A stretch of 64,000 nucleotides of DNA from a virus. Positions 9,459 through 17,236 of this stretch are shown here, piece after piece. The stretch's first letter is position 1. Each line of letters starts with the position of its first letter. The position numbers and the translations under genes are program-made. The DNA lies in IMG/VR virus record IMGVR_UViG_3300025864_000001, positions 14,469 to 78,468 of that record; one strand, given 5' to 3'. The notes under the pieces were generated by a model. The model was given only the letters and a program-made list of their open reading frames with translations. It was not told where the DNA came from and did not search any database.

Positions 9459-9641
9459 TTATAGTCCGCAATCTGCATCAGACTGCATTTCATACTCTAA
9501 TTCGTAGAGTTCACTGGCTCTGTCTGCGCAATCCTCGCAGATATTGACATCAAGAGGGCTAATTTCCCCGTTCTCTATCATATCAACCTCTGTTTTAGAT
9601 AGTTGAAATTTCTCTTTACATATAATACAGGTGCGTTTCAT
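9459..9641 (-). CDS. small zinc-ribbon protein
   Basis: CIIC...CEDC. Confidence 0.65.
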   Translation of the reverse strand: MKRTCIICKEKFQLSKTEVDMIENGEISPLDVNICEDCADRASELYELEYEMQSDADCGL

Positions 9642-9652
9642 AGTGTTGTGTT

Positions 9653-9745
9653 TTAAAGGTTTTCAACTATTGTTTCTATTTCTTCATCCGTAGACCCTTG
9701 GGCCCTGAGGTCCTTTACAAATTCAATTAATTCACTGGTTTTCAT
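9653..9745 (-). CDS. 30-aa early peptide (not in the ORF track)
   Basis: MKTSELIEFVKDLRAQGSTDEEIETIVENL, preceded by the AAAAACACAAAC motif seen before neighbouring genes. Confidence 0.55.
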   Translation of the reverse strand: MKTSELIEFVKDLRAQGSTDEEIETIVENL

Positions 9746-9778
9746 TGGTTTGTGTTTTTAATTAATACTAATCAGATG

Positions 9779-9893
9779 TAAATGTAATACATATATATCA
9801 TATAAACAAATCTTTTTACATATTTATTTTGCATTATTATATTATTATTATTGCTTTTTACTTGTTTATATGATATTTATAGTTTTACTTTGT
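9779..9893. promoter_or_regulatory. divergent early promoters sharing a 15-bp inverted repeat
   Basis: ATATCATATAAACAA (9795-9809) and TTGTTTATATGATAT (9862-9876), each followed by a near-consensus -7 box. Confidence 0.65.
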
Positions 9894-9919
9894 ACTGTTA
9901 ACCAATAAAAACACACACA

Positions 9920-10300
9920 ATGAAAATTAAAAGCAGTAACGCAAGTAGTTTTTTAAATCATCTCAAAACATTGGCCTATCTTGGTAATGTTGATGAGTGG
10001 AAAGCAGAGAACCTTTACAAGAAATTAAAAAGGATCGAATCAAGAATGAACCGTTTAATGTGCGATGAGTGCAACGGGACCAGACCAGGCACCGAAGAAG
10101 AGAACGAAAAGAAAGACGAAAAAGTAATTGATCGAGTTAAAAAGCTCCTTCCGGTTGCTACTGGCGTATTCCTTAACGGGGACCCTCGCGGCTATACTCT
10201 TAAAATCAAGAGCGAAGATGTTAAAACTTTGAACGAGGCCGGCAAAATCAATATTTATCAGGATTGGGGCGGCTATGGTATTTTGGCCCCTGAATTTTAA
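9920..10300 (+). CDS. early hypothetical protein (NGDPRGY family)
   Basis: 126 aa with LNGDPRGYTLKI; first gene after the rightward promoter. Confidence 0.75.
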   Translation: MKIKSSNASSFLNHLKTLAYLGNVDEWKAENLYKKLKRIESRMNRLMCDECNGTRPGTEEENEKKDEKVIDRVKKLLPVATGVFLNGDPRGYTLKIKSEDVKTLNEAGKINIYQDWGGYGILAPEF

Positions 10301-10301
10301 A

Positions 10302-10356
10302 GGTTTGCTGATGATTGTTAAATACATGAAAGCGGGCTAATTACCCGCTACAAACC
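10302..10356 (+). ncRNA. hammerhead ribozyme (type I)
   Basis: stem I GGTTTG/CAAACC, CTGATGA core, short stem II, GAAA, stem III GCGGG/CCCGC, CUA cleavage triplet. Confidence 0.85.
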
Positions 10357-10373
10357 AATAAAAACACAAAGAA

Positions 10374-10637
10374 ATGACAAACACACTAATTAACACAGAT
10401 TACCGGACCTATTTAGTAAGGTTCAAATTTCAATCAACATACTGCCGTTTTATCGTGCAGGGTTCCGGGCTTATGGACTGCTTAAAACAGTATGATCAGA
10501 ACGGGGTGGAATCCATTAAAGAATTTGACCCGCTCAAAAGTACATTTAAACGCATTTCCCGGGCTGATCTCCTGAAGGCGTTCAAATGGGAAACAGAAAC
10601 GTATGAGTATTTAAAAAATCATTACTTTTTCAAATAG
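10374..10637 (+). CDS. early hypothetical protein
   Basis: 87 aa; upstream 16-mer identical to that before gene 9920. Confidence 0.75.
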   Translation: MTNTLINTDYRTYLVRFKFQSTYCRFIVQGSGLMDCLKQYDQNGVESIKEFDPLKSTFKRISRADLLKAFKWETETYEYLKNHYFFK

Positions 10638-10708
10638 TTTTTATTGGTTGCTTGGTTAATACTTTGCGCCTGGGGTGTGTTCCTGGGCGCAATTAACCAC
10701 GCTTAACC
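10637..10708 (+). ncRNA. long hairpin with segments antisense to early-gene start regions
   Basis: GTTTTTATTGGTT, TGGTTAATACT and GTGTGTT complementary to early start regions; long imperfect stem. Confidence 0.55.
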
Positions 10709-10723
10709 GTAAATATTAATATT

Positions 10724-10924
10724 ATGGCACGAAAAAAATGTACTTTGGAATCTATCGCGCTGACTACTTTAAAGCCTGGTGCGTTCCTTTACTCTCATAA
10801 GGCCGATAAAGATTTAACGGCTATATCTCATTATTATCGGGTGCGGATAGCTACTGAGCGTTTAATATTGATCAATCCGCAGACCTGTAAAGCTCAAAAA
10901 ATTACAAAAGTTACTTTACTCTAA
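10724..10924 (+). CDS. early hypothetical protein
   Basis: 66-aa ORF. Confidence 0.6.
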   Translation: MARKKCTLESIALTTLKPGAFLYSHKADKDLTAISHYYRVRIATERLILINPQTCKAQKITKVTLL

Positions 10925-11384
10925 TACCTTATATTATGGAATATCTTTATTTATTAATTCCTGGTGTTCTGATCCTGATGATCTTCTTACCCTCTATTAA
11001 ACCCTTTAATACTGTGAAAAAATGACAATAGAACGCACCGCAACCAATTTAATGACCGGACAAATAAGAACGGTTATTTTTACACGTGTTGAGGATCATA
11101 ATTTTAATATTGCCAATCTCTGGCGGTCCTCTGATGGTGGTTATTATACCTTTGGGATCCTCGGATGGTTTAACGTTGATAAATACCTGAAACATGATTA
11201 AGCGCGTTTTAAGGCATCAATTTGCCCCGTTCCTACTTATCCCCCTGTCTTGTATCTATTGGGGTGTGTTCTGGGCCCTGGGGGTCCTGCTGGGCTTAAT
11301 GTAGCCGGGAGAATGCAGGGCCAAAGGTTTTAATATTACAATCAAATAGTATCACAATTTTTTAATTTATAAAAACACAGAAAA

Positions 11385-11597
11385 ATGAAAGAAATTAAAT
11401 TTAACAGAAATACGTCATTTTTAGGGCGTAACGGCATGTTTAAACAATCCGGTATCCGAATAAATGAGATTACTGGCGCAATAGCTTTGTACCCGATCAC
11501 CAGTAAAGGACAAATCGGACGAGCATGTTTAACTATTCCAAAAGATAAGTTACAGGAATTTATGAATGCACTATTATTAACCCCTCTCACAGATTAA
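11385..11597 (+). CDS. early hypothetical protein
   Basis: 70 aa; AAAAACACAG upstream motif. Confidence 0.65.
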   Translation: MKEIKFNRNTSFLGRNGMFKQSGIRINEITGAIALYPITSKGQIGRACLTIPKDKLQEFMNALLLTPLTD

Positions 11598-11668
11598 GTT
11601 TTTGCCCGTTACAAGTCGGGAATAATACAGAGTACAGGGGCGCAAGCCTCTGAAATGTAACCAAAAAC
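11598..11668 (+). ncRNA. twister ribozyme (type P3)
   Basis: P3 GTTTTTG/CAAAAAC, P4 CCCG/CGGG with loop TTACAAGT, P2 TACA/TGTA, GAGTA, P1 CAGGGGC-GCAA-GCCTCTG; both pseudoknots (UAC/GUA, GU/AC) pair. Confidence 0.88.
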
Positions 11669-11677
11669 ATAGAAATT

Positions 11678-12028
11678 ATGAAAGATCAAAAACACACAGC
11701 AGGAAATTGGACACGTGGAACTCGTACCAATACAAAAGAATGGATGCAAATAGTTAGTGATGGTATTATACCAATTGCAGAAGTAAAACCATTACATAAA
11801 ACCGGATACAGAGAAAAGGATGACTTTCAAACAGAAGAAGCAAACGCAAAATTAATTTGCGCAGCCCCAGACTTACTAAAAGTTTGCATTGACTTACTTA
11901 ACGCATTTGTCCACAAAGAGAATGACAAGAAAGGCAACCAGACAAGAACGGACATTTTTAAATACTGTCCTGAATTTGGGGAAATAGCAGTAGCAGCAAG
12001 ACACGCAATCGAAAAAGCAACGGAATAA
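11678..12028 (+). CDS. early protein, ANAKLIAAAPDLL family
   Basis: KHTAGNW...EANAKLICAAPDLL...KATE. Confidence 0.75.
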   Translation: MKDQKHTAGNWTRGTRTNTKEWMQIVSDGIIPIAEVKPLHKTGYREKDDFQTEEANAKLICAAPDLLKVCIDLLNAFVHKENDKKGNQTRTDIFKYCPEFGEIAVAARHAIEKATE

Positions 12029-12149
12029 TGAAAACAATTTGTACACATTGCGGGAAAAAACAAACCGCAAAAGAAAAAGAGTATTCTTTAAATAGCGCAA
12101 AATGTAAGTTTTGTAAAAAAGAAGGTACGTTAATAGAAATAACAAAGCA

Positions 12150-12392
12150 ATGAATAAACCAACCTACACACCGGAACAGATGAACGGCAAATATATTGCC
12201 TGTTCTGTATTACTCGATCCTCCCGGCTTGGGTGCAGTCGAATATGCCACAGGACCACGCGAGGGATTGCCCGTACTCTACAATTCCATAGCATCAGCAG
12301 AAGATGATTTGTTTTGGGATGACTTATGGGATCACATTATACCCGCAAGTGAATATTTTGAGCGGGTGGCAACAAATAATTTTAAGTTTTAA
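12150..12392 (+). CDS. hypothetical protein
   Basis: 80-aa ORF. Confidence 0.6.
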   Translation: MNKPTYTPEQMNGKYIACSVLLDPPGLGAVEYATGPREGLPVLYNSIASAEDDLFWDDLWDHIIPASEYFERVATNNFKF

Positions 12393-12413
12393 AATATATA
12401 AAAAAGCATAATT

Positions 12414-12692
12414 ATGAAACACACACAAGGAGAATGGATTATGCACAATAACGTGTTTAATTCTGTTGTAATCACAAAAATAGACAGTGGTTATAAAGTT
12501 ATCGGATCATTCACAAATGATAATAAATTGATCCCAGAAAACGAAATGAGGGCAAATGCAAAACTCTGCGCAGCAGCCCCTGACTTACTGGAGTCCTGTA
12601 TCAAATTATTTGAAATTGTTGATACAAGATCCCAATCCGATGAAGATATTTGCTTCATGGCATATAAAACCATTAAAAAAGCCACCGAATAA
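12414..12692 (+). CDS. early protein, ANAKLIAAAPDLL family
   Basis: MKHTQGEW...ANAKLCAAAPDLL...KKATE. Confidence 0.75.
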   Translation: MKHTQGEWIMHNNVFNSVVITKIDSGYKVIGSFTNDNKLIPENEMRANAKLCAAAPDLLESCIKLFEIVDTRSQSDEDICFMAYKTIKKATE

Positions 12693-12982
12693 TGCCACAA
12701 TTTAACCTCTTTGGAGAGATAGACGTACAGACCATGCCGGAGCCGGAAATGGTTTCCGAAATGCCTGAGCCTGAGATGCCGCACCCTCGCAAGTCAAAGA
12801 AGAGAAAGTCTTTTGATATTGGCATTTGTCGTGCGTGTGGTCAGTTACTACTCGATGATCCTGATAACACCAGGATTAAGATTGATGATGAGTTATGTGA
12901 GGATTGCGATGCTACATTAAGGGCAAAATACAGTCAGTATAAAAATTTTGCTCTTATACGAGCATTGAGAATGCGTAAATAA
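12692..12982 (+). CDS. zinc-ribbon protein with an MPEPEM repeat
   Basis: CRAC..CEDC; duplicated MPEPEM. Confidence 0.6.
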   Translation: MPQFNLFGEIDVQTMPEPEMVSEMPEPEMPHPRKSKKRKSFDIGICRACGQLLLDDPDNTRIKIDDELCEDCDATLRAKYSQYKNFALIRALRMRK

Positions 12983-12997
12983 CTTAAAAATAATAAC

Positions 12998-13236
12998 ATG
13001 AAAACTATTGAAGTTTCAGCCAAATCAATGACTGAATTTATTAAAAGCACAAAACTTCATTTTGATAATATTGATAAAATTATGAAGTTGCCGGAATCTA
13101 ATGAAAGAGGCAGGATGATAGCCAAAGAAATGAAATGAATCGGATTAATTTCGATTATGATGCTTTTCTTCATTTTGCGCTTAATATCCCAATGGACAAA
13201 CTCCAATCGGTGAGAAATAAAAGTTTCAAATTATAA
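12998..13236 (+). pseudogene. 77-aa gene interrupted by a 5-bp duplication
   Basis: GAAAT GAAAT at 13127-13136; removing one copy gives one open frame from ATG 12998 to TAA 13236. Confidence 0.55.
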
Positions 13237-13246
13237 AAACAATATT

Positions 13247-13477
13247 ATGAAAACAAATCCAAATAATCCAATTAATGCAATAGTAGGAGACAGTACAAAA
13301 TTTGCCGGACTTACCAAGCGTGAATACTTTGCAGCAATGGCAATGCAGGGACTTCTTGCAGGACATTACGAATACTTTACAGGTAATGCAGATGTTTCTG
13401 TACCAATGGAAATTGCTAAATATGCAGTTTATAATGCAGATGCTTTAATTGAAGAACTTAATAAATCAGAATTATGA
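13247..13477 (+). CDS. conserved phage protein (GLTKREYFAAMAMQG family)
   Basis: GLTKREYFAAMAMQGLL...AV..ADALIEELN. Confidence 0.8.
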   Translation: MKTNPNNPINAIVGDSTKFAGLTKREYFAAMAMQGLLAGHYEYFTGNADVSVPMEIAKYAVYNADALIEELNKSEL

Positions 13478-13974
13478 AAAAACTATTTTTTTTACTTTTG
13501 ATCAGCGTGTCATTCTCAGCAATGGCACAGCGTTATCCCTTTGCCCTCTATGTATCACACCAGCCGGTTGACTTTGGTATTGGTGTGCGTGGTGACTATT
13601 ATATACATGGCTTAGGCTTGTATAGCTCTGTGTCTTATGGCAATTGGGGACTTTACAGACAGTATGATATAAAACACCATGTAAAGCTATCAACGGGTGT
13701 GTTATTGCCTCTGCCAGATTATAATGGTGCTTCATTTGATGTTACTGCCGGCATTAATTATCATCTTTTAGGATCTGTTATGCTCGATAACTCCCCTCTT
13801 GACCCTAAAATCTTTAACCCTTGGAGTTTTGAGTTAGGGATTACAGCTAAATTAAAGCGTTTTTCATTAGGTTTGCGCACTGACATTTTGCGTTGGGAAC
13901 CATGCGTGGACGTAGGTTTTAAACTATTTAAAGGACAATATTATGACAAAGCAAAAAGTAAATCCTGTAAGTAA
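13474..13974 (+). CDS. secreted, probable outer-membrane beta-barrel protein
   Basis: Sec signal MKKLFFLLLISVSFSAMA; alternating aromatic/Gly beta-strands. Confidence 0.55.
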   Translation: MKKLFFLLLISVSFSAMAQRYPFALYVSHQPVDFGIGVRGDYYIHGLGLYSSVSYGNWGLYRQYDIKHHVKLSTGVLLPLPDYNGASFDVTAGINYHLLGSVMLDNSPLDPKIFNPWSFELGITAKLKRFSLGLRTDILRWEPCVDVGFKLFKGQYYDKAKSKSCK

Positions 13975-14167
13975 TCGTAAAATGTGGTGCTATTATGCGC
14001 CCGATGGGTGGCCACAAGTAAGAACATTAGCTGAGTCTCGAGTTGAATGTAGGCTGATGCTTAATAAATATGACTATCCTGCTACATGGCAGAAAGCTGA
14101 AAGTCAAGGTGCTTTTATACACAAAGTTGTTGTAACAATAATTGAACCTTTAAAATTAAGCCAATGA
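13943..14167 (+). CDS. hypothetical protein
   Basis: 74-aa ORF. Confidence 0.55.
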   Translation: MTKQKVNPVSNRKMWCYYAPDGWPQVRTLAESRVECRLMLNKYDYPATWQKAESQGAFIHKVVVTIIEPLKLSQ

Positions 14168-14517
14168 GAAAAAAGCAAATTTTCGTTCAAACGCAGGGTG
14201 TAGATAAGAACAGGGTCTCCCCCTTTAAGCCTATGGGCTTTGTTGCGCTTAATTTTGACAATATCAAAATGACTATTGATGCGTATGATTATTCAGGTGT
14301 GCTTGCTGAACCACGTGAGGACTCTCTTGTTGAGATCATGGACGAAAAAGAAGTATTTCAATTCACCCCTGCACAATTACTGCAAGCAATAAGATTTTTT
14401 CAACGCTATGCCGAAATGGGGAAGGATGTGGTGCGCTTTAAGAACATCTTCCATGTCATTATGCCAGACAGGTATAAGAATGCCTTACAAGTCACGAAAC
14501 GAGGTCTTAAATTTTGA
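14164..14517 (+). CDS. hypothetical protein
   Basis: 117-aa ORF with ATGA coupling. Confidence 0.65.
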   Translation: MRKKQIFVQTQGVDKNRVSPFKPMGFVALNFDNIKMTIDAYDYSGVLAEPREDSLVEIMDEKEVFQFTPAQLLQAIRFFQRYAEMGKDVVRFKNIFHVIMPDRYKNALQVTKRGLKF

Positions 14518-14545
14518 GTTTTAAAAATAGTTTATCTTTGTACCG

Positions 14546-14971
14546 ATGCAGACACAAGACACCATATCAAAAAAGAAGTTGGACCGGATAAAAATAATTT
14601 ATAACGGGGACGTGGAGATAATAGATTTCCTTTCCGATCTGAAAAGCAGGGATGTGATAGCCGGACTACAAGACCTCATCCATGATAATAAAGGACTGCC
14701 CTGTGCCCTCCTCTTTAATTGTGGATGTGATGATATTGTGGTAATGATACTCTATAAATCACCTTTTGCGTTCAATGATCCGGGTAATACTCTCATGCTT
14801 TATGCCGGAAATGAACTACATGAACTGATGGTGTACTTTAGACATCTTTTGGATAACACTTCAAAAGAGAAAAGCGTTATTAACCAAGCATTAACTGATA
14901 TTGTGCAACTACTGTACCAGGAATGGAACAGATTGCAAGACGATAATGTTCAGTCTGATTTTTTAGGCTGA
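14546..14971 (+). CDS. hypothetical protein, probably near-leaderless mRNA
   Basis: 141 aa; TATCTTTG box at 14533-14540 lies 5 nt before the ATG. Confidence 0.65.
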   Translation: MQTQDTISKKKLDRIKIIYNGDVEIIDFLSDLKSRDVIAGLQDLIHDNKGLPCALLFNCGCDDIVVMILYKSPFAFNDPGNTLMLYAGNELHELMVYFRHLLDNTSKEKSVINQALTDIVQLLYQEWNRLQDDNVQSDFLG

Positions 14972-14979
14972 CATAGAAC

Positions 14980-15018
14980 GGGTGCCGGTTTGTGTGTTCC
15001 GGTGCCCTTTCTTTTTTT
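14980..15018 (+). terminator. intrinsic terminator with a loop antisense to early start motifs
   Basis: GGGTGCCGG-TTTGTGTGTT-CCGGTGCCC followed by a T-tract. Confidence 0.7.
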
Positions 15019-15045
15019 CTAAACACTATAATCAAATTAATTGTA

Positions 15046-15609
15046 ATGAAGATGATCACAGGAACTTTAATAACATGGTTTTGTTTTCTCACTTGCTCGG
15101 CACCTCCTCCTTCGGTGGCGCAGCAAAAAGAAAACATTGAATGGGTTAAAATAGAGATTAATCGCATAGACTGTGAAGAGCAGCTTGCACTCTTTATTGA
15201 ACACTTGGGTATCCGTGAATCGGGTAATCGGTGGCAGATAATCAATGCAATCGGATGTATGGGTAAATTTCAATTTGCTCACAATACTCTTGAGTGTCTT
15301 GGTTACGGCTACATCACACCTCAGCAGTTCGCTCATAACCCTGAAATCTTCCCCGAAGCACTACAACGTCAGGTGTTGCTTGCCCTCTTTAAATCAAATG
15401 AAATAGCACTTAGAGACTATTTCTATTATTGCGGGCAGGAAATAGCAGGTGTGACAATAACCAGATCGGGAATGCTTGCTGCGGCTCATCTTGGAGGTGC
15501 CTATTCCGTAAAACTCTTTCTGCTTAGCATGGGGCATGTCAATAGACAAGACCTGAACCAGACATCAATAAAACACTACCTGAGCGAATTTGCCGGGTAT
15601 AATATTTAA
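15046..15609 (+). CDS. lysozyme-like / lytic transglycosylase with a signal-like N-terminus
   Basis: GIRESGN..IN.IGCMGKFQF and LAAAHLGG motifs. Confidence 0.7.
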   Translation: MKMITGTLITWFCFLTCSAPPPSVAQQKENIEWVKIEINRIDCEEQLALFIEHLGIRESGNRWQIINAIGCMGKFQFAHNTLECLGYGYITPQQFAHNPEIFPEALQRQVLLALFKSNEIALRDYFYYCGQEIAGVTITRSGMLAAAHLGGAYSVKLFLLSMGHVNRQDLNQTSIKHYLSEFAGYNI

Positions 15610-15619
15610 AAACACGACT

Positions 15620-15937
15620 ATGACAAAAGACAAGATTATTGAAAAACAGAAAGAACTGATTATCGTATTAACAACGGCCTTGGATTTCTTGGCAGATAAC
15701 AATCTGATTAAAGAAAAAAAAAATAATAACGATATTGATAATGAGCCTTTAATTGATTGCGTGAACAAGGCAGCCAAATTAAGAACTGAGGTTAAAGAAC
15801 TTGAATCAGAACTTTTTAAAGAAAAAACTCAATGCCCTTATAAAGGTGAAGAAGGTAATACATATGATCTATGTCCTTCATGGATCGCTTTTACAAATGG
15901 GTGTGCTGATTGTGTTAAATATCATAAAAATCAATAG
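15620..15937 (+). CDS. hypothetical protein
   Basis: start MTKDKII; Cys-rich C-terminus. Confidence 0.6.
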   Translation: MTKDKIIEKQKELIIVLTTALDFLADNNLIKEKKNNNDIDNEPLIDCVNKAAKLRTEVKELESELFKEKTQCPYKGEEGNTYDLCPSWIAFTNGCADCVKYHKNQ

Positions 15938-16246
15938 CTATGAAAAAAGACAAAACACCTATTGAATTTGAAGATCCTGATCCCTTTGACGGGATGAAAG
16001 CTCTTGGATGTCTGCTTATCGGCTCGGTACTGATCGCAGTAGCACTATTTCTGTTTGGAGTACTCATTAAAGTAATACAATGACTATGAAACTATTCTTA
16101 GCTATTTTAATGGGTGTCATCGCCATTATGTTCCTGTTCTTTGCCGGATTCGCAGAGGTGGTGGCAGTTGCCTTTGTTTACGTACTGCTCGCAATGTTGA
16201 GCATGCTCTTATCATTCTATTTTTACTTTGGTAATATCGAGTTTAA

Positions 16247-16510
16247 ATGAGCAGACATTACGAGCCACGCCAAAAGAAAGTCATCCCTCCTGTAAGGCGT
16301 ATGAAGATTATACGGATTGATGCCAGAACGGAAATTGAGGTACTTGCAAGCATCCCTGATGATGTGGCCAGAGAACGGTTCATCGCAAAACGAAATATGG
16401 GGCCACGTGCTCCGTTTGCCTCTCTATATCCTGCTGATGAAAAGCCGGAAGTGCCACAAGAAGAACTTGCATCAGTTGTAGATGATGAGGATTTACCTGA
16501 AACAGAATAA
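16247..16510 (+). CDS. hypothetical protein
   Basis: 87-aa ORF. Confidence 0.6.
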   Translation: MSRHYEPRQKKVIPPVRRMKIIRIDARTEIEVLASIPDDVARERFIAKRNMGPRAPFASLYPADEKPEVPQEELASVVDDEDLPETE

Positions 16511-16736
16511 CTATGGACAAAAGACTATTTGCATTTTTAAAAGATCGCAAGATATTCACAGGTGGTCATAAAACTTTGCGTGAATACATGGACAATAAAG
16601 AGCAAAACACTGAATGGAATGATCGTGCCCGGAAAGGGCACAAGAAAGCCAAGATGAAATAAATTTGGTTATTAAATCTACACTTCGTACTTTTGAAGTG
16701 TTATAACGGCAATATTGCCACAAAACAACAAAAACA

Positions 16737-17180
16737 ATGCGCATGAAAAAAATGCTTATCCTCGCACTGATCGCACTCTTTTACATAGTGTCCAGTGCGT
16801 TGACACCGCCTCAAACGGTGCCCGTTGACCAAGATGTTGGCTATTCGTTAATTGCGAATCAGAACACATCAGTAATAACAATTCTTCCAGTTCAAAGCCC
16901 GGTTATTGCCGGTGAAGTAAGTTACACAATTACCAGGGGGTCCAGTGTGATTGACAAGGGTCTGATTAATTCAGATGCCATAGTGTATAATCATCAGGAA
17001 AGTTTCACATGTAATACTTACTACACAATTGACAGGCTTGATTCAAAACTGCCGATATTAGCAGGATTTGAAAATCAAATAAAGAACCCTCCGGGTAGAA
17101 ACAGTATGAGCACAGACTTGGGAGGACTGCTAATTGAATATGATGTTCCCCGGGACGGGGCAAAGTCCAGACATATCTAA
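16737..17180 (+). CDS. secreted hypothetical protein
   Basis: signal peptide MKKMLILALIALFYIVSSA; own TACTTTTG box at 16688-16695. Confidence 0.6.
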   Translation: MRMKKMLILALIALFYIVSSALTPPQTVPVDQDVGYSLIANQNTSVITILPVQSPVIAGEVSYTITRGSSVIDKGLINSDAIVYNHQESFTCNTYYTIDRLDSKLPILAGFENQIKNPPGRNSMSTDLGGLLIEYDVPRDGAKSRHI

Positions 17181-17205: not shown

Positions 17206-17236
17206 AAGCACCTCGTAAATGGGGTGCTTCTTTTTT
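17206..17236. terminator. intrinsic terminator between convergent units
   Basis: AAGCACCTC/GGGGTGCTT stem plus T-tract. Confidence 0.7.

What the first reader, a model, noticed from the sequence alone, without database searches (positions are those of the whole stretch)
11598..11668. Complete type-P3 twister ribozyme between two early genes
Seen: every twister element can be paired. P3 is 11598-11604/11662-11668, P4 is 11605-11608/11617-11620 around loop UUACAAGU, P2 is 11626-11629/11656-11659, and P1 closes a GCAA tetraloop. The pseudoknots are UAC:GUA and GU:AC. It starts on the base after the TAA of 11385-11597, and its last strand ends 9 nt before the ATG at 11678. Known: twisters self-cleave in L1, which here predicts a cut between 11653 and 11654 (A/A rather than the more usual U/A). 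Inference: it processes the early mRNA and controls access to the next start site.
Basis: partly seen in the sequence, partly recalled or inferred. Interest (0 to 1): 0.8.

Follow-up and report, generated by a model that had tools for sequence, protein, structure and literature searches.

The report
Twister self-cutting RNA between phage genes
The 71 bases are a genuine member of the known twister family of self-cutting RNAs, filling the gap between two small genes of an uncultured peat phage, where it most likely cuts the shared message just ahead of the next gene; this arrangement is already known in phages.

Summary
Observation confirmed. Rfam's type-P3 twister model (RF03154) matches window 11598-11668 (+) end to end at 59.6 bits (cut-off 39.9, E 1.6e-10). 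It is the only real Rfam hit in the window and the only twister in the 78-kb phage genome. The minimum-energy fold reproduces P1-P4 exactly (z -3.5). The model puts the cut at A11653/A11654.

A syntenic relative (L022) has a twister in the same slot with the same spacing. Its P1 stem is wholly replaced but still paired, and two pairs of pseudoknot T1 are changed compensatorily.

Function is inferred: the ribozyme cuts the operon transcript. The downstream gene would receive a 24-nt, A-rich, unstructured 5'-OH leader. Its A-tract (-15 to -11), the type of signal that stimulates translation in Bacteroidota, is the 3' strand of P3.

No RNA data exist, so neither the cut nor "early" expression is shown.

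Ribozymes punctuating phage operons have been described since 2011, and bacterial twisters lie near phage genes. This scan's index lists 121 notes in at least 106 genomes that hold the words twister, ribozyme, phage and intergenic; six of the eight shown describe twister or twister-like ribozymes in phage genomes. This is a new member of a known kind, of modest interest.

The parts
11385..11597 (+). Upstream gene, 70 aa, no known family. Its TAA stop is the last three bases before the ribozyme.
   Evidence: ORF list. No Pfam or PHROG hit. Homologues at 97, 81 and 72% identity. In DNA contigs of other peat and soil runs, 17 of the 19 listed variant sites in this gene fall on third codon positions (my count), so it is a real gene under purifying selection.
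11598..11668 (+). Type-P3 twister ribozyme, whole element.
   Evidence: RF03154, 59.6 bits, E 1.6e-10, full length. Minimum-energy fold equals the twister nested fold, z -3.53. The same slot is occupied in relative L022.
11598..11604 (+). P3 5' strand GUUUUUG. It pairs with 11662-11668 and so masks the next gene's A-tract.
11605..11620 (+). P4 hairpin (CCCG/CGGG) with the 8-nt loop UUACAAGU. The loop carries the T1 strand UAC (11610-12) and the T2 strand GU (11615-16).
   Evidence: The loop matches the model consensus GUUnCAAGUC.
11626..11634 (+). P2 5' strand UACA (11626-29), then the L1 strand GAGUA (11630-34). GUA at 11632-34 is the T1 partner. G11630 aligns with the conserved G of the model's GAG.
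   Evidence: That this G acts as general base is taken from the literature on twister (G/A mechanism, PMC6765202). The residue mapping is my inference.
11635..11652 (+). P1 hairpin, 7 bp, with a GCAA tetraloop.
   Evidence: In L022 all of its pairs are replaced and it still pairs.
11653..11654 (+). Predicted scissile bond, A11653/A11654. The model has U/A; the relative L022 has U/A.
   Evidence: cmscan alignment of the model's UAA to AAA. L022 alignment. No cleavage has been measured.
11656..11668 (+). P2 3' strand UGUA, T2 strand AC and P3 3' strand CAAAAAC. Together with A11654-A11655 these form the 15-nt 'scar' left on the downstream RNA. CAAAAAC lies at -16 to -10 of the next start codon.
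11669..11677 (+). 9-nt spacer with no Shine-Dalgarno sequence.
11678..12028 (+). Downstream gene, 116 aa, PHROG 1273 (function unknown). A paralogue lies at 12414-12692.
   Evidence: The L022 orthologue is 61% identical. The protein atlas places it next to clusters carrying PF27050 'Phage_P22_Y8K6' (score 0.92, TM 0.72). That is a lead only.

Best explanation
This is a genuine type-P3 twister self-cleaving ribozyme. It is encoded on the same strand as the flanking genes and lies inside a run of small plus-strand genes (9920-17180) of a complete 78-kb phage from peat.

Inferred mechanism. When the run is transcribed as one RNA, the 71 nt fold into the double-pseudoknot twister and cut themselves between A11653 and A11654.

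- The upstream piece keeps the 70-aa gene plus 56 nt of compact structure, and ends in a 2',3'-cyclic phosphate.
- The downstream piece starts with a 5'-OH. It has a 24-nt leader that is 58% A, nearly G-free and unstructured, ahead of the PHROG-1273 gene.

Only 15 nt of the ribozyme stay on the downstream RNA, and these are its translation start region. The P3 3' strand CAAAAAC sits at -16 to -10. That is where this phage's genes, like Bacteroidota genes, carry the A-run that stimulates Shine-Dalgarno-independent initiation. Folding therefore masks that region. Cutting followed by release of the 5' piece would expose it.

What is shown: family membership, the fold, conservation with compensatory changes, and the placement. 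What is inferred: co-transcription of the run, cleavage in vivo, product release, and any effect on stability or translation.
For: - **Family match.** Full-length RF03154 hit, 20 bits above the cut-off. It is the only twister in the genome.
- **Fold.** The minimum-energy fold is the nested twister fold, z -3.53.
- **Conservation in a relative.** L022 has a 97%-identical upstream gene and a 61%-identical downstream gene, with a twister in the same slot at the same 0-nt and 9-nt spacing (47.8 bits). The differences between the two ribozymes cluster in P1, where every pair is replaced and still pairs, and in T1, where UAC:GUA becomes UCA:UGA, two compensatory pairs.
- **Other phage twisters.** Four further phage type-P3 twisters (L005, L021 x3) keep all helices. 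Across the six sequences T1 covaries through four pair combinations.
- **Placement.** Where flanks are available, they start 0, 0, -1, 0 and -9 nt from the upstream stop. All six end 3-19 nt before the next ATG, leaving 18-34-nt A-rich leaders.
- **Translation signals.** The phage lacks Shine-Dalgarno motifs: 7 of 50 genes against 19% background. It has A at -13 in 68% and at -12 in 72% of genes. In Flavobacterium, A-12 and A-13 stimulate translation and structure in the start region inhibits it (PMC6847099).
- **Leader motif.** The ribozyme's 3' tail resembles the leader motif shared by genes 9920, 10374 and 11385.
- **Downstream product.** The 3' product is unstructured. Nearest-neighbour energies hold it to the 5' product by only about -6 kcal/mol.
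- **Transcription unit.** No terminator-like site lies next to the element. A strong one closes the gene run at 17206-17229.
- **The A at -1.** A high-throughput assay of natural twisters reports that deviations at the -1 position are broadly tolerated (PMC11662667).
Against: - No RNA data: no RNA run holding this sequence is on record, so neither transcription nor cleavage is shown.
- The -1 nucleotide is A instead of the usual U. One position of the model's conserved AAA linker is U.
- More distant homologues of the upstream gene (43-55% identity, L023-L027) have no ribozyme, and their genes abut or overlap. The element is therefore dispensable for this gene family.
- In two of the six phage examples the -13/-12 adenines lie outside the ribozyme, so masking of the start region is not a general rule.
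- Promoters of this phage are unknown. A start of transcription inside the 183-nt gap at 11202-11384 or elsewhere cannot be excluded, although that would still place the ribozyme inside a transcript.
Confidence: 0.85

Rival explanations
1. The twister fold is kept but this copy cuts poorly or not at all because of the A at -1 and the linker change. It would then act as a structure only: a 3' end shield for the upstream message, or a block that uncouples translation of the two genes.
For: A replaces U at -1, whereas the close relative L022 and four other phage copies all have U. One conserved linker A is U.
Against: Deviations at -1 are reported as broadly tolerated in thousands of natural twisters (PMC11662667). 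The adenine 3' of the cut and the conserved GAG are intact, and both pseudoknots are perfect. The score is higher than that of the relative with U at -1 (59.6 against 47.8 bits).
Confidence: 0.07
2. The ribozyme is a passenger. It would be a small module that moves between gene junctions by recombination and persists without benefit to the phage, for example as a mark of mobile gene-cassette boundaries.
For: Presence is patchy. It is absent next to distant homologues of the upstream gene. In L005 a similar twister follows a homologue of a different window gene (10724-10924), whose own junction in the window has none. The flanking gene families differ between phages, as reported for prophage hammerheads (PMC3088659). 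The window and L022 differ by a block covering P1, L1 and T1, which looks like module exchange.
Against: Both alleles keep every pairing, including the tertiary pseudoknot, so the fold is under selection. The exact stop-to-start fit and the reuse of the P3 strand as the start-region A-tract point to integration into gene expression. Being mobile does not exclude the processing role.
Confidence: 0.07
3. Chance resemblance, or a feature of the minus strand such as the 46-aa ORF at 11609-11749.
For: None beyond the existence of that short TTG-started ORF.
Against: E 1.6e-10. None of 200 shuffles folds as well. A relative carries compensatory changes.
Confidence: 0.01

Closest known systems
Type-P3 twister ribozyme (Rfam RF03154; class discovered in 2014 according to the review PMC6765202)
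   Same: Same permuted helix order (P3 open, P1 closed by a loop), P4 loop motif, GAG and AA core, T1 and T2 pseudoknots, and length (71 against 73 nt). It scores 20 bits above the family cut-off.
   Different: A instead of U 5' of the scissile bond. U at one position of the AAA linker. T1 middle pair A-U instead of the consensus C-G, with a compensatory change. The source is an uncultured peat phage whose start regions are of the Bacteroidota type.
Hammerhead ribozymes flanking genes in prophages, and 'HHphage' of haloviruses HF1/HF2 (Perreault et al. 2011, PMC3088659)
   Same: A small self-cleaving ribozyme between phage genes, proposed to process long transcripts into gene-length mRNAs. HHphage lies 13 nt upstream of the start codon of an early gene, and the mapped 5' end lies within 3 nt of its cut site. 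Here the ribozyme ends 9 nt before the start codon.
   Different: A different ribozyme class and fold. A single copy here rather than copies flanking a gene. No transcript mapping is available here.
Twister arrays in phage operons noted elsewhere in this scan (e1-5891544, e1-5751813, e1-5634148)
   Same: Twisters filling gene junctions in runs of small phage genes.
   Different: Those are arrays of 3 to about 30 copies, mostly types P1 and P5. This genome has exactly one, of type P3.
Engineered ribozyme insulators placed in 5' leaders, and reporter constructs carrying twisters (twister reporters cited in PMC6765202; insulators from my own knowledge)
   Same: The cut standardises the 5' end of the downstream message, so that its start region no longer depends on what lies upstream.
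   Different: Those are synthetic devices. Here the arrangement is natural and its effect is untested.

Membership tests
Twister ribozyme, type P3 (RF03154) | Covariance-model score at or above the curated gathering score, over the full model | tested here: met
   59.6 bits against 39.9, model positions 1-73 of 73, E 1.6e-10. The result is the same in the whole-genome search.
Twister ribozyme, type P3 (RF03154) | Helices P3, P4, P2 and P1 in the P3-permuted order, with P1 closed by a loop | tested here: met
   The cmscan structure line, the identical minimum-energy fold, and the pair-by-pair check: 7, 4, 4 and 7 standard pairs.
Twister ribozyme, type P3 (RF03154) | Two pseudoknots: T1 (P4 loop with L1) and T2 (P4 loop with the dinucleotide after P2) | tested here: met
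   T1 is U-A, A-U, C-G and T2 is G-C, U-A. T1 covaries through four combinations in six phage copies, including the syntenic relative.
Twister ribozyme, type P3 (RF03154) | Conserved core nucleotides: P4 loop CAAG, the L1 strand GAG, and AA after the scissile bond | tested here: met
   All are present in the alignment. Two deviations: A for U at -1, and U for the first A of the AAA linker. Position -1 is reported as tolerant (PMC11662667).
Twister ribozyme, type P3 (RF03154) | Site-specific self-cleavage giving 2',3'-cyclic phosphate and 5'-OH ends | not testable with these tools
Ribozyme-punctuated phage operon (arrangement of PMC3088659) | Ribozyme on the coding strand, in the gap between co-oriented phage genes, with no terminator between them | tested here: met
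   Same strand as both ORFs. It starts on the first base after the stop codon and ends 9 nt before the ATG. No adjacent plus-strand terminator-like site. The genome is a complete virus record with terminal repeats.
Ribozyme-punctuated phage operon (arrangement of PMC3088659) | Several ribozymes flanking single genes or short blocks | tested here: not met
   There is one twister in the genome. No other Rfam ribozyme appears, even at E up to 10 in 9600-11700. A hammerhead-like motif at 10302-10356 remains unconfirmed.

The most novel reading that the evidence does not exclude
The type-P3 permutation is used here as an irreversible switch or insulator for translation in a host without Shine-Dalgarno recognition. 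The closing helix P3 is built from the next gene's own A-rich start region, so the fold hides it. Self-cleavage then leaves a standard 24-nt 5'-OH leader.

A second, hammerhead-like motif at 10302-10356 would do the same one gene cluster upstream. It would leave a 23-nt leader that carries the same AACCAA(U)AAAAAC motif. Two ribozyme classes would then serve as interchangeable leader-makers in one operon.
Probability: 0.2. Interest if true: 0.55.

Novelty: new member of a known kind. Interest (0 to 1): 0.3.

Why it matters
The biological role of bacterial and phage twisters is still undetermined (PMC6765202). This copy adds a clean, single-copy case in a complete phage genome, with a natural pair of alleles: A or U at -1, and a swapped P1 and T1.

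It also gives a concrete, testable link to translation. The piece of the ribozyme left on the downstream message is that gene's A-rich start region, of the kind shown to drive initiation in Bacteroidota.

It does not change what is known about the class, and the phage and its host are uncultured.

Tried and rejected
- **RNA evidence.** The look-up of sequencing runs listed no RNA holder, so cleavage ends could not be looked for.
- **DNA contigs.** Read laying showed DNA contigs only. They show variant alleles but say nothing on expression.
- **Relatives in phage collections.** None were found. Megablast against INPHARED gave no match. Peptide-pattern scans of IMG/VR with the downstream and the upstream protein gave no match.
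- **Core-pattern scan of IMG/VR.** It gave 20 hits. Two of the pattern sites passed Rfam as twister-P3 at gathering (L005 and one site in L021), and two further copies were found in the L021 locus. One more pattern site, in L006, is a below-cut-off type-P1 twister on the contig that also appears as L028. About 20 chance hits are expected from the pattern's information content (my estimate).
- **Scan of genomes.** The narrower pattern gave one hit, a sub-threshold type-P1 twister in a Kordia MAG contig. This is only a weak hint to a Bacteroidota host.
- **Other ribozyme classes.** Rfam found none in the window at E up to 1, nor in 9600-11700 at E up to 10.
- **Promoters.** The sigma-70-type scan was at the chance level. 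The Bacteroidota-type promoter pattern gave no site near the element.
- **Downstream protein.** No solved-structure relative was found.
- **Regulated (riboswitch-like) ribozyme.** I considered this and rejected it: there is no extra domain, and all 71 nt are accounted for by the minimal twister.

Full report
**What is there**

I read window 11300-11800. The window was scanned against all 4227 Rfam families. One match reaches a gathering score: type-P3 twister (RF03154) at 11598-11668 on the plus strand. It scores 59.6 bits against a cut-off of 39.9, E 1.6e-10, covers model positions 1-73 of 73, and is not truncated.

A permissive scan at E up to 1 adds nothing real. The window is part of a 78,468-bp IMG/VR virus record with direct terminal repeats, rated 100% complete. 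This is the only twister in that record.

**Anatomy**

The structure line of the model, the thermodynamic fold and a pair-by-pair check agree.

| Element | Positions | Notes |
|---|---|---|
| P3 | 11598-11604 / 11662-11668 | G-C, five U-A, G-C |
| P4 | 11605-11608 / 11617-11620 | loop UUACAAGU |
| P2 | 11626-11629 / 11656-11659 | 4 bp |
| P1 | 11635-11641 / 11646-11652 | 7 bp, GCAA loop |
| T1 | UAC 11610-12 / GUA 11632-34 | pseudoknot |
| T2 | GU 11615-16 / AC 11660-61 | pseudoknot |

- The minimum-energy structure of the 71 nt is exactly the nested part of this fold, at -22.3 kcal/mol. None of 200 shuffles folds as well (z -3.53).
- The model's U/AA cleavage triplet aligns to A11653/A11654-A11655.
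- The only other deviation from a well-conserved consensus letter is U for the first A of the AAA linker.
- A high-throughput assay of natural twisters states that imperfections at the -1 position are broadly tolerated, whereas those just downstream of the cut are not (PMC11662667). The downstream AA is intact here.

**Surroundings**

- The ribozyme begins on the base after the stop of a 70-aa ORF (11385-11597). It ends 9 nt before the ATG of a 116-aa ORF (11678-12028).
- The upstream ORF has no family but is a real gene. It has homologues at 97, 81 and 72% identity. In DNA contigs from other peat and soil runs, 17 of the 19 variant sites listed inside it are third codon positions (my count).
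- The downstream ORF belongs to PHROG 1273, of unknown function, and has a paralogue at 12414-12692. The protein atlas puts it beside clusters carrying PF27050, a P22-phage domain of unknown role. This is a lead only.
- Both ORFs lie in a run of small plus-strand genes, 9920-17180. The run ends in a strong terminator-like hairpin at 17206-17229, and no such site lies next to the ribozyme.
- Whether these genes are "early" cannot be told from sequence.

**Relatives**

- Phage GenBank records and IMG/VR hold no close relative.
- A JGI metagenome contig, L022, is syntenic across seven genes. Its upstream gene is 97% identical, and a type-P3 twister (47.8 bits) starts on the base after its stop codon. 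The PHROG-1273 gene, 61% identical, starts 9 nt after the ribozyme.
- Aligned to the window, P3, P4 and the P2 5' strand are identical. The changes fall in four places:
  - In P1, all pairs are replaced and six pairs still form.
  - In T1, UAC:GUA becomes UCA:UGA, two compensatory pairs.
  - The -1 base is U.
  - There is one extra U in the P2 3' strand.
- Contigs from other soil and peat runs show the same second allele (indels at 11634-11657 in one run, and a loose end after 11631 that continues as an L022-like P1).
- Selection is thus keeping the tertiary fold, not the sequence.
- More distant homologues of the upstream gene (43-55% identity, L023-L027) have no ribozyme at E up to 0.1. Their next gene follows after 3 or 37 nt, or overlaps by 4 nt.
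- In L005 a very similar twister follows a homologue of a different window gene (10724-10924).
- The element is therefore an accessory module whose presence varies between junctions.

**A wider look at phage type-P3 twisters**

A core-pattern scan of IMG/VR, followed by Rfam, gave four more: three within 3.6 kb in L021, the first right after a RadC-like gene, and one in L005.

- All six sequences keep P1-P4 and both pseudoknots. T1 takes four different pair combinations.
- Where flanks are available, the ribozyme starts 0, 0, -1, 0 and -9 nt from the upstream stop.
- All six end 3-19 nt before the next ATG.
- The cut would leave leaders of 18-34 nt that are 50-65% A with one or two G.

**How it most likely works**

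- *Established for the class.* Twisters cut themselves to give a 2',3'-cyclic phosphate and a 5'-OH. For bacterial and phage-associated copies, processing of polycistronic RNA has been suggested but not settled (PMC6765202).
- *The start region, shown here.* This phage's genes lack Shine-Dalgarno motifs: 7 of 50 against a 19% background. They carry A at -13 in 68% and at -12 in 72% of genes. That is the signature of Bacteroidota. In that group A-12 and A-13 stimulate translation and structure in the start region lowers it (PMC6847099).
- *Overlap with P3, shown here.* For the gene at 11678, positions -16 to -10 are CAAAAAC, the 3' strand of P3. Together with the preceding AC it resembles the leader motif AACCAATAAAAAC of genes 9920 and 10374, and the related leader of gene 11385.
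- *Inference.* While the ribozyme is folded, the start region of the next gene is locked in a -22 kcal/mol structure. After the cut, the 3' piece is unstructured. By nearest-neighbour energies it is held to the 5' piece by only about -6 kcal/mol. It can therefore leave and present a free A-rich leader with a 5'-OH.
- *The upstream message.* It keeps a compact 56-nt 3' end.
- *Limits.* Co-transcription, cleavage in vivo, product release and any effect on stability or translation are all inferred. In two of the six phage copies the -13/-12 adenines lie just outside the ribozyme, so masking is not universal.

**Rivals**

- A structure-only role for a crippled copy is unlikely, given the tolerance at -1 and the intact core.
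- A purely selfish passenger fits the patchy distribution. It does not explain the compensatory changes or the exact stop-to-start fit, and it does not exclude the processing role.
- Chance is excluded.

**Comparison with what is known**

- *Membership.* Membership in RF03154 is met on every sequence and structure criterion that can be tested. Catalysis cannot be tested here.
- *Precedent.* The arrangement is not new. Perreault et al. 2011 described hammerheads flanking genes in prophages, with cleavage of about 2-kb polycistronic constructs in vitro. They also described a halovirus hammerhead 13 nt upstream of an early gene's start codon, with the mapped 5' end within 3 nt of the cut (PMC3088659). 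Bacterial twisters are known to lie near phage genes (PMC6765202).
- *This scan.* Its index lists 121 notes in at least 106 genomes that hold the words twister, ribozyme, phage and intergenic. Six of the eight shown describe twister or twister-like ribozymes in phage genomes, three of them arrays of up to about 30 copies.
- *What is particular here.* There is a single copy of the P3 type. There is a natural A/U pair at -1 with a swapped P1 and T1. And the P3 strand coincides with the A-rich start region.

**Verdict**

The identification is right. The functional reading is reasonable but unproven. This is a new member of a known kind, and I score its interest at 0.3.

Noticed in passing
window 10302-10356 (+): A hammerhead-like motif fills most of the gap after the stop of 9920-10300. 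Read: GGUUUG, then CUGAUGA, a weak 3-bp stem II with a U-U where G-C is usual, GAAA, a 6-bp stem III, UA, and CAAACC pairing back to the start. A cut after the UA would leave a 23-nt leader with the same AACCAAUAAAAAC motif as the twister's leader. Rfam reports no hammerhead even at E up to 10. Perreault et al. rejected candidates mispaired at 10.1-11.1 (PMC3088659). Its status is open.
   Followed up: partly
window 10637-10708 (+): Starting on the last base of the stop codon of 10374-10637, GUUUUUAUUGGUU is the complement of the shared leader motif AACCAAUAAAAAC. It is followed by a long GC-rich hairpin. It resembles the twister's P3 5' strand GUUUUUG in sequence and in its position at a stop codon. 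There is no Rfam family.
   Followed up: no
window 10937-11026 (+): The 97-nt 'gap' between genes 10724-10924 and 11022-11201 reads as a 29-codon hydrophobic mini-ORF whose stop overlaps the next ATG (read). It is probably a small membrane peptide gene rather than non-coding RNA.
   Followed up: no
window, all genes of at least 120 aa: Start regions lack Shine-Dalgarno motifs and have A peaks at -13/-12, -6 and -3. This is the Bacteroidota pattern of PMC6847099 and points to a Bacteroidota host for this peat phage.
   Followed up: partly
L021 66-3629 (IMG/VR UViG_3300017716_002569): Three type-P3 twisters lie within 3.6 kb, at successive gene junctions: after a RadC-like JAB gene, then after a 247-aa gene, and a third further on. 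The 247-aa gene is flanked by ribozymes on both sides, so it would be released as a single-gene RNA with 5'-OH and cyclic-phosphate ends.
   Followed up: partly
L028 2426-2477 (-), Kordia sp. MAG contig NVVR01000069.1; also in IMG/VR as L006: A minimal type-P1 twister without P3 has the same UAC:GUA T1 as the window's copy. It scores 40.2 bits, below the RF03160 cut-off of 67.2 (E 1.9e-7 in 501 nt), and lies 26 nt upstream of an ATG. Rfam's cut-off misses such short forms.
   Followed up: partly
L003 8757-9351, L018 3238-3829 and L018 5985-6109: Large phage contigs picked up by chance matches to the pattern carry ROOL RNAs (303 and 285 bits) and a RAGATH-33 RNA among tRNA clusters.
   Followed up: no
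window 11262-11280, 10675-10688, 14992-15005: A GC-rich motif GUGUGUUC(C)(U)GGGC recurs three times in an otherwise AT-rich gene run. One copy lies in the 183-nt gap upstream of gene 11385 (families D6 and D18). It is unexplained.
   Followed up: no
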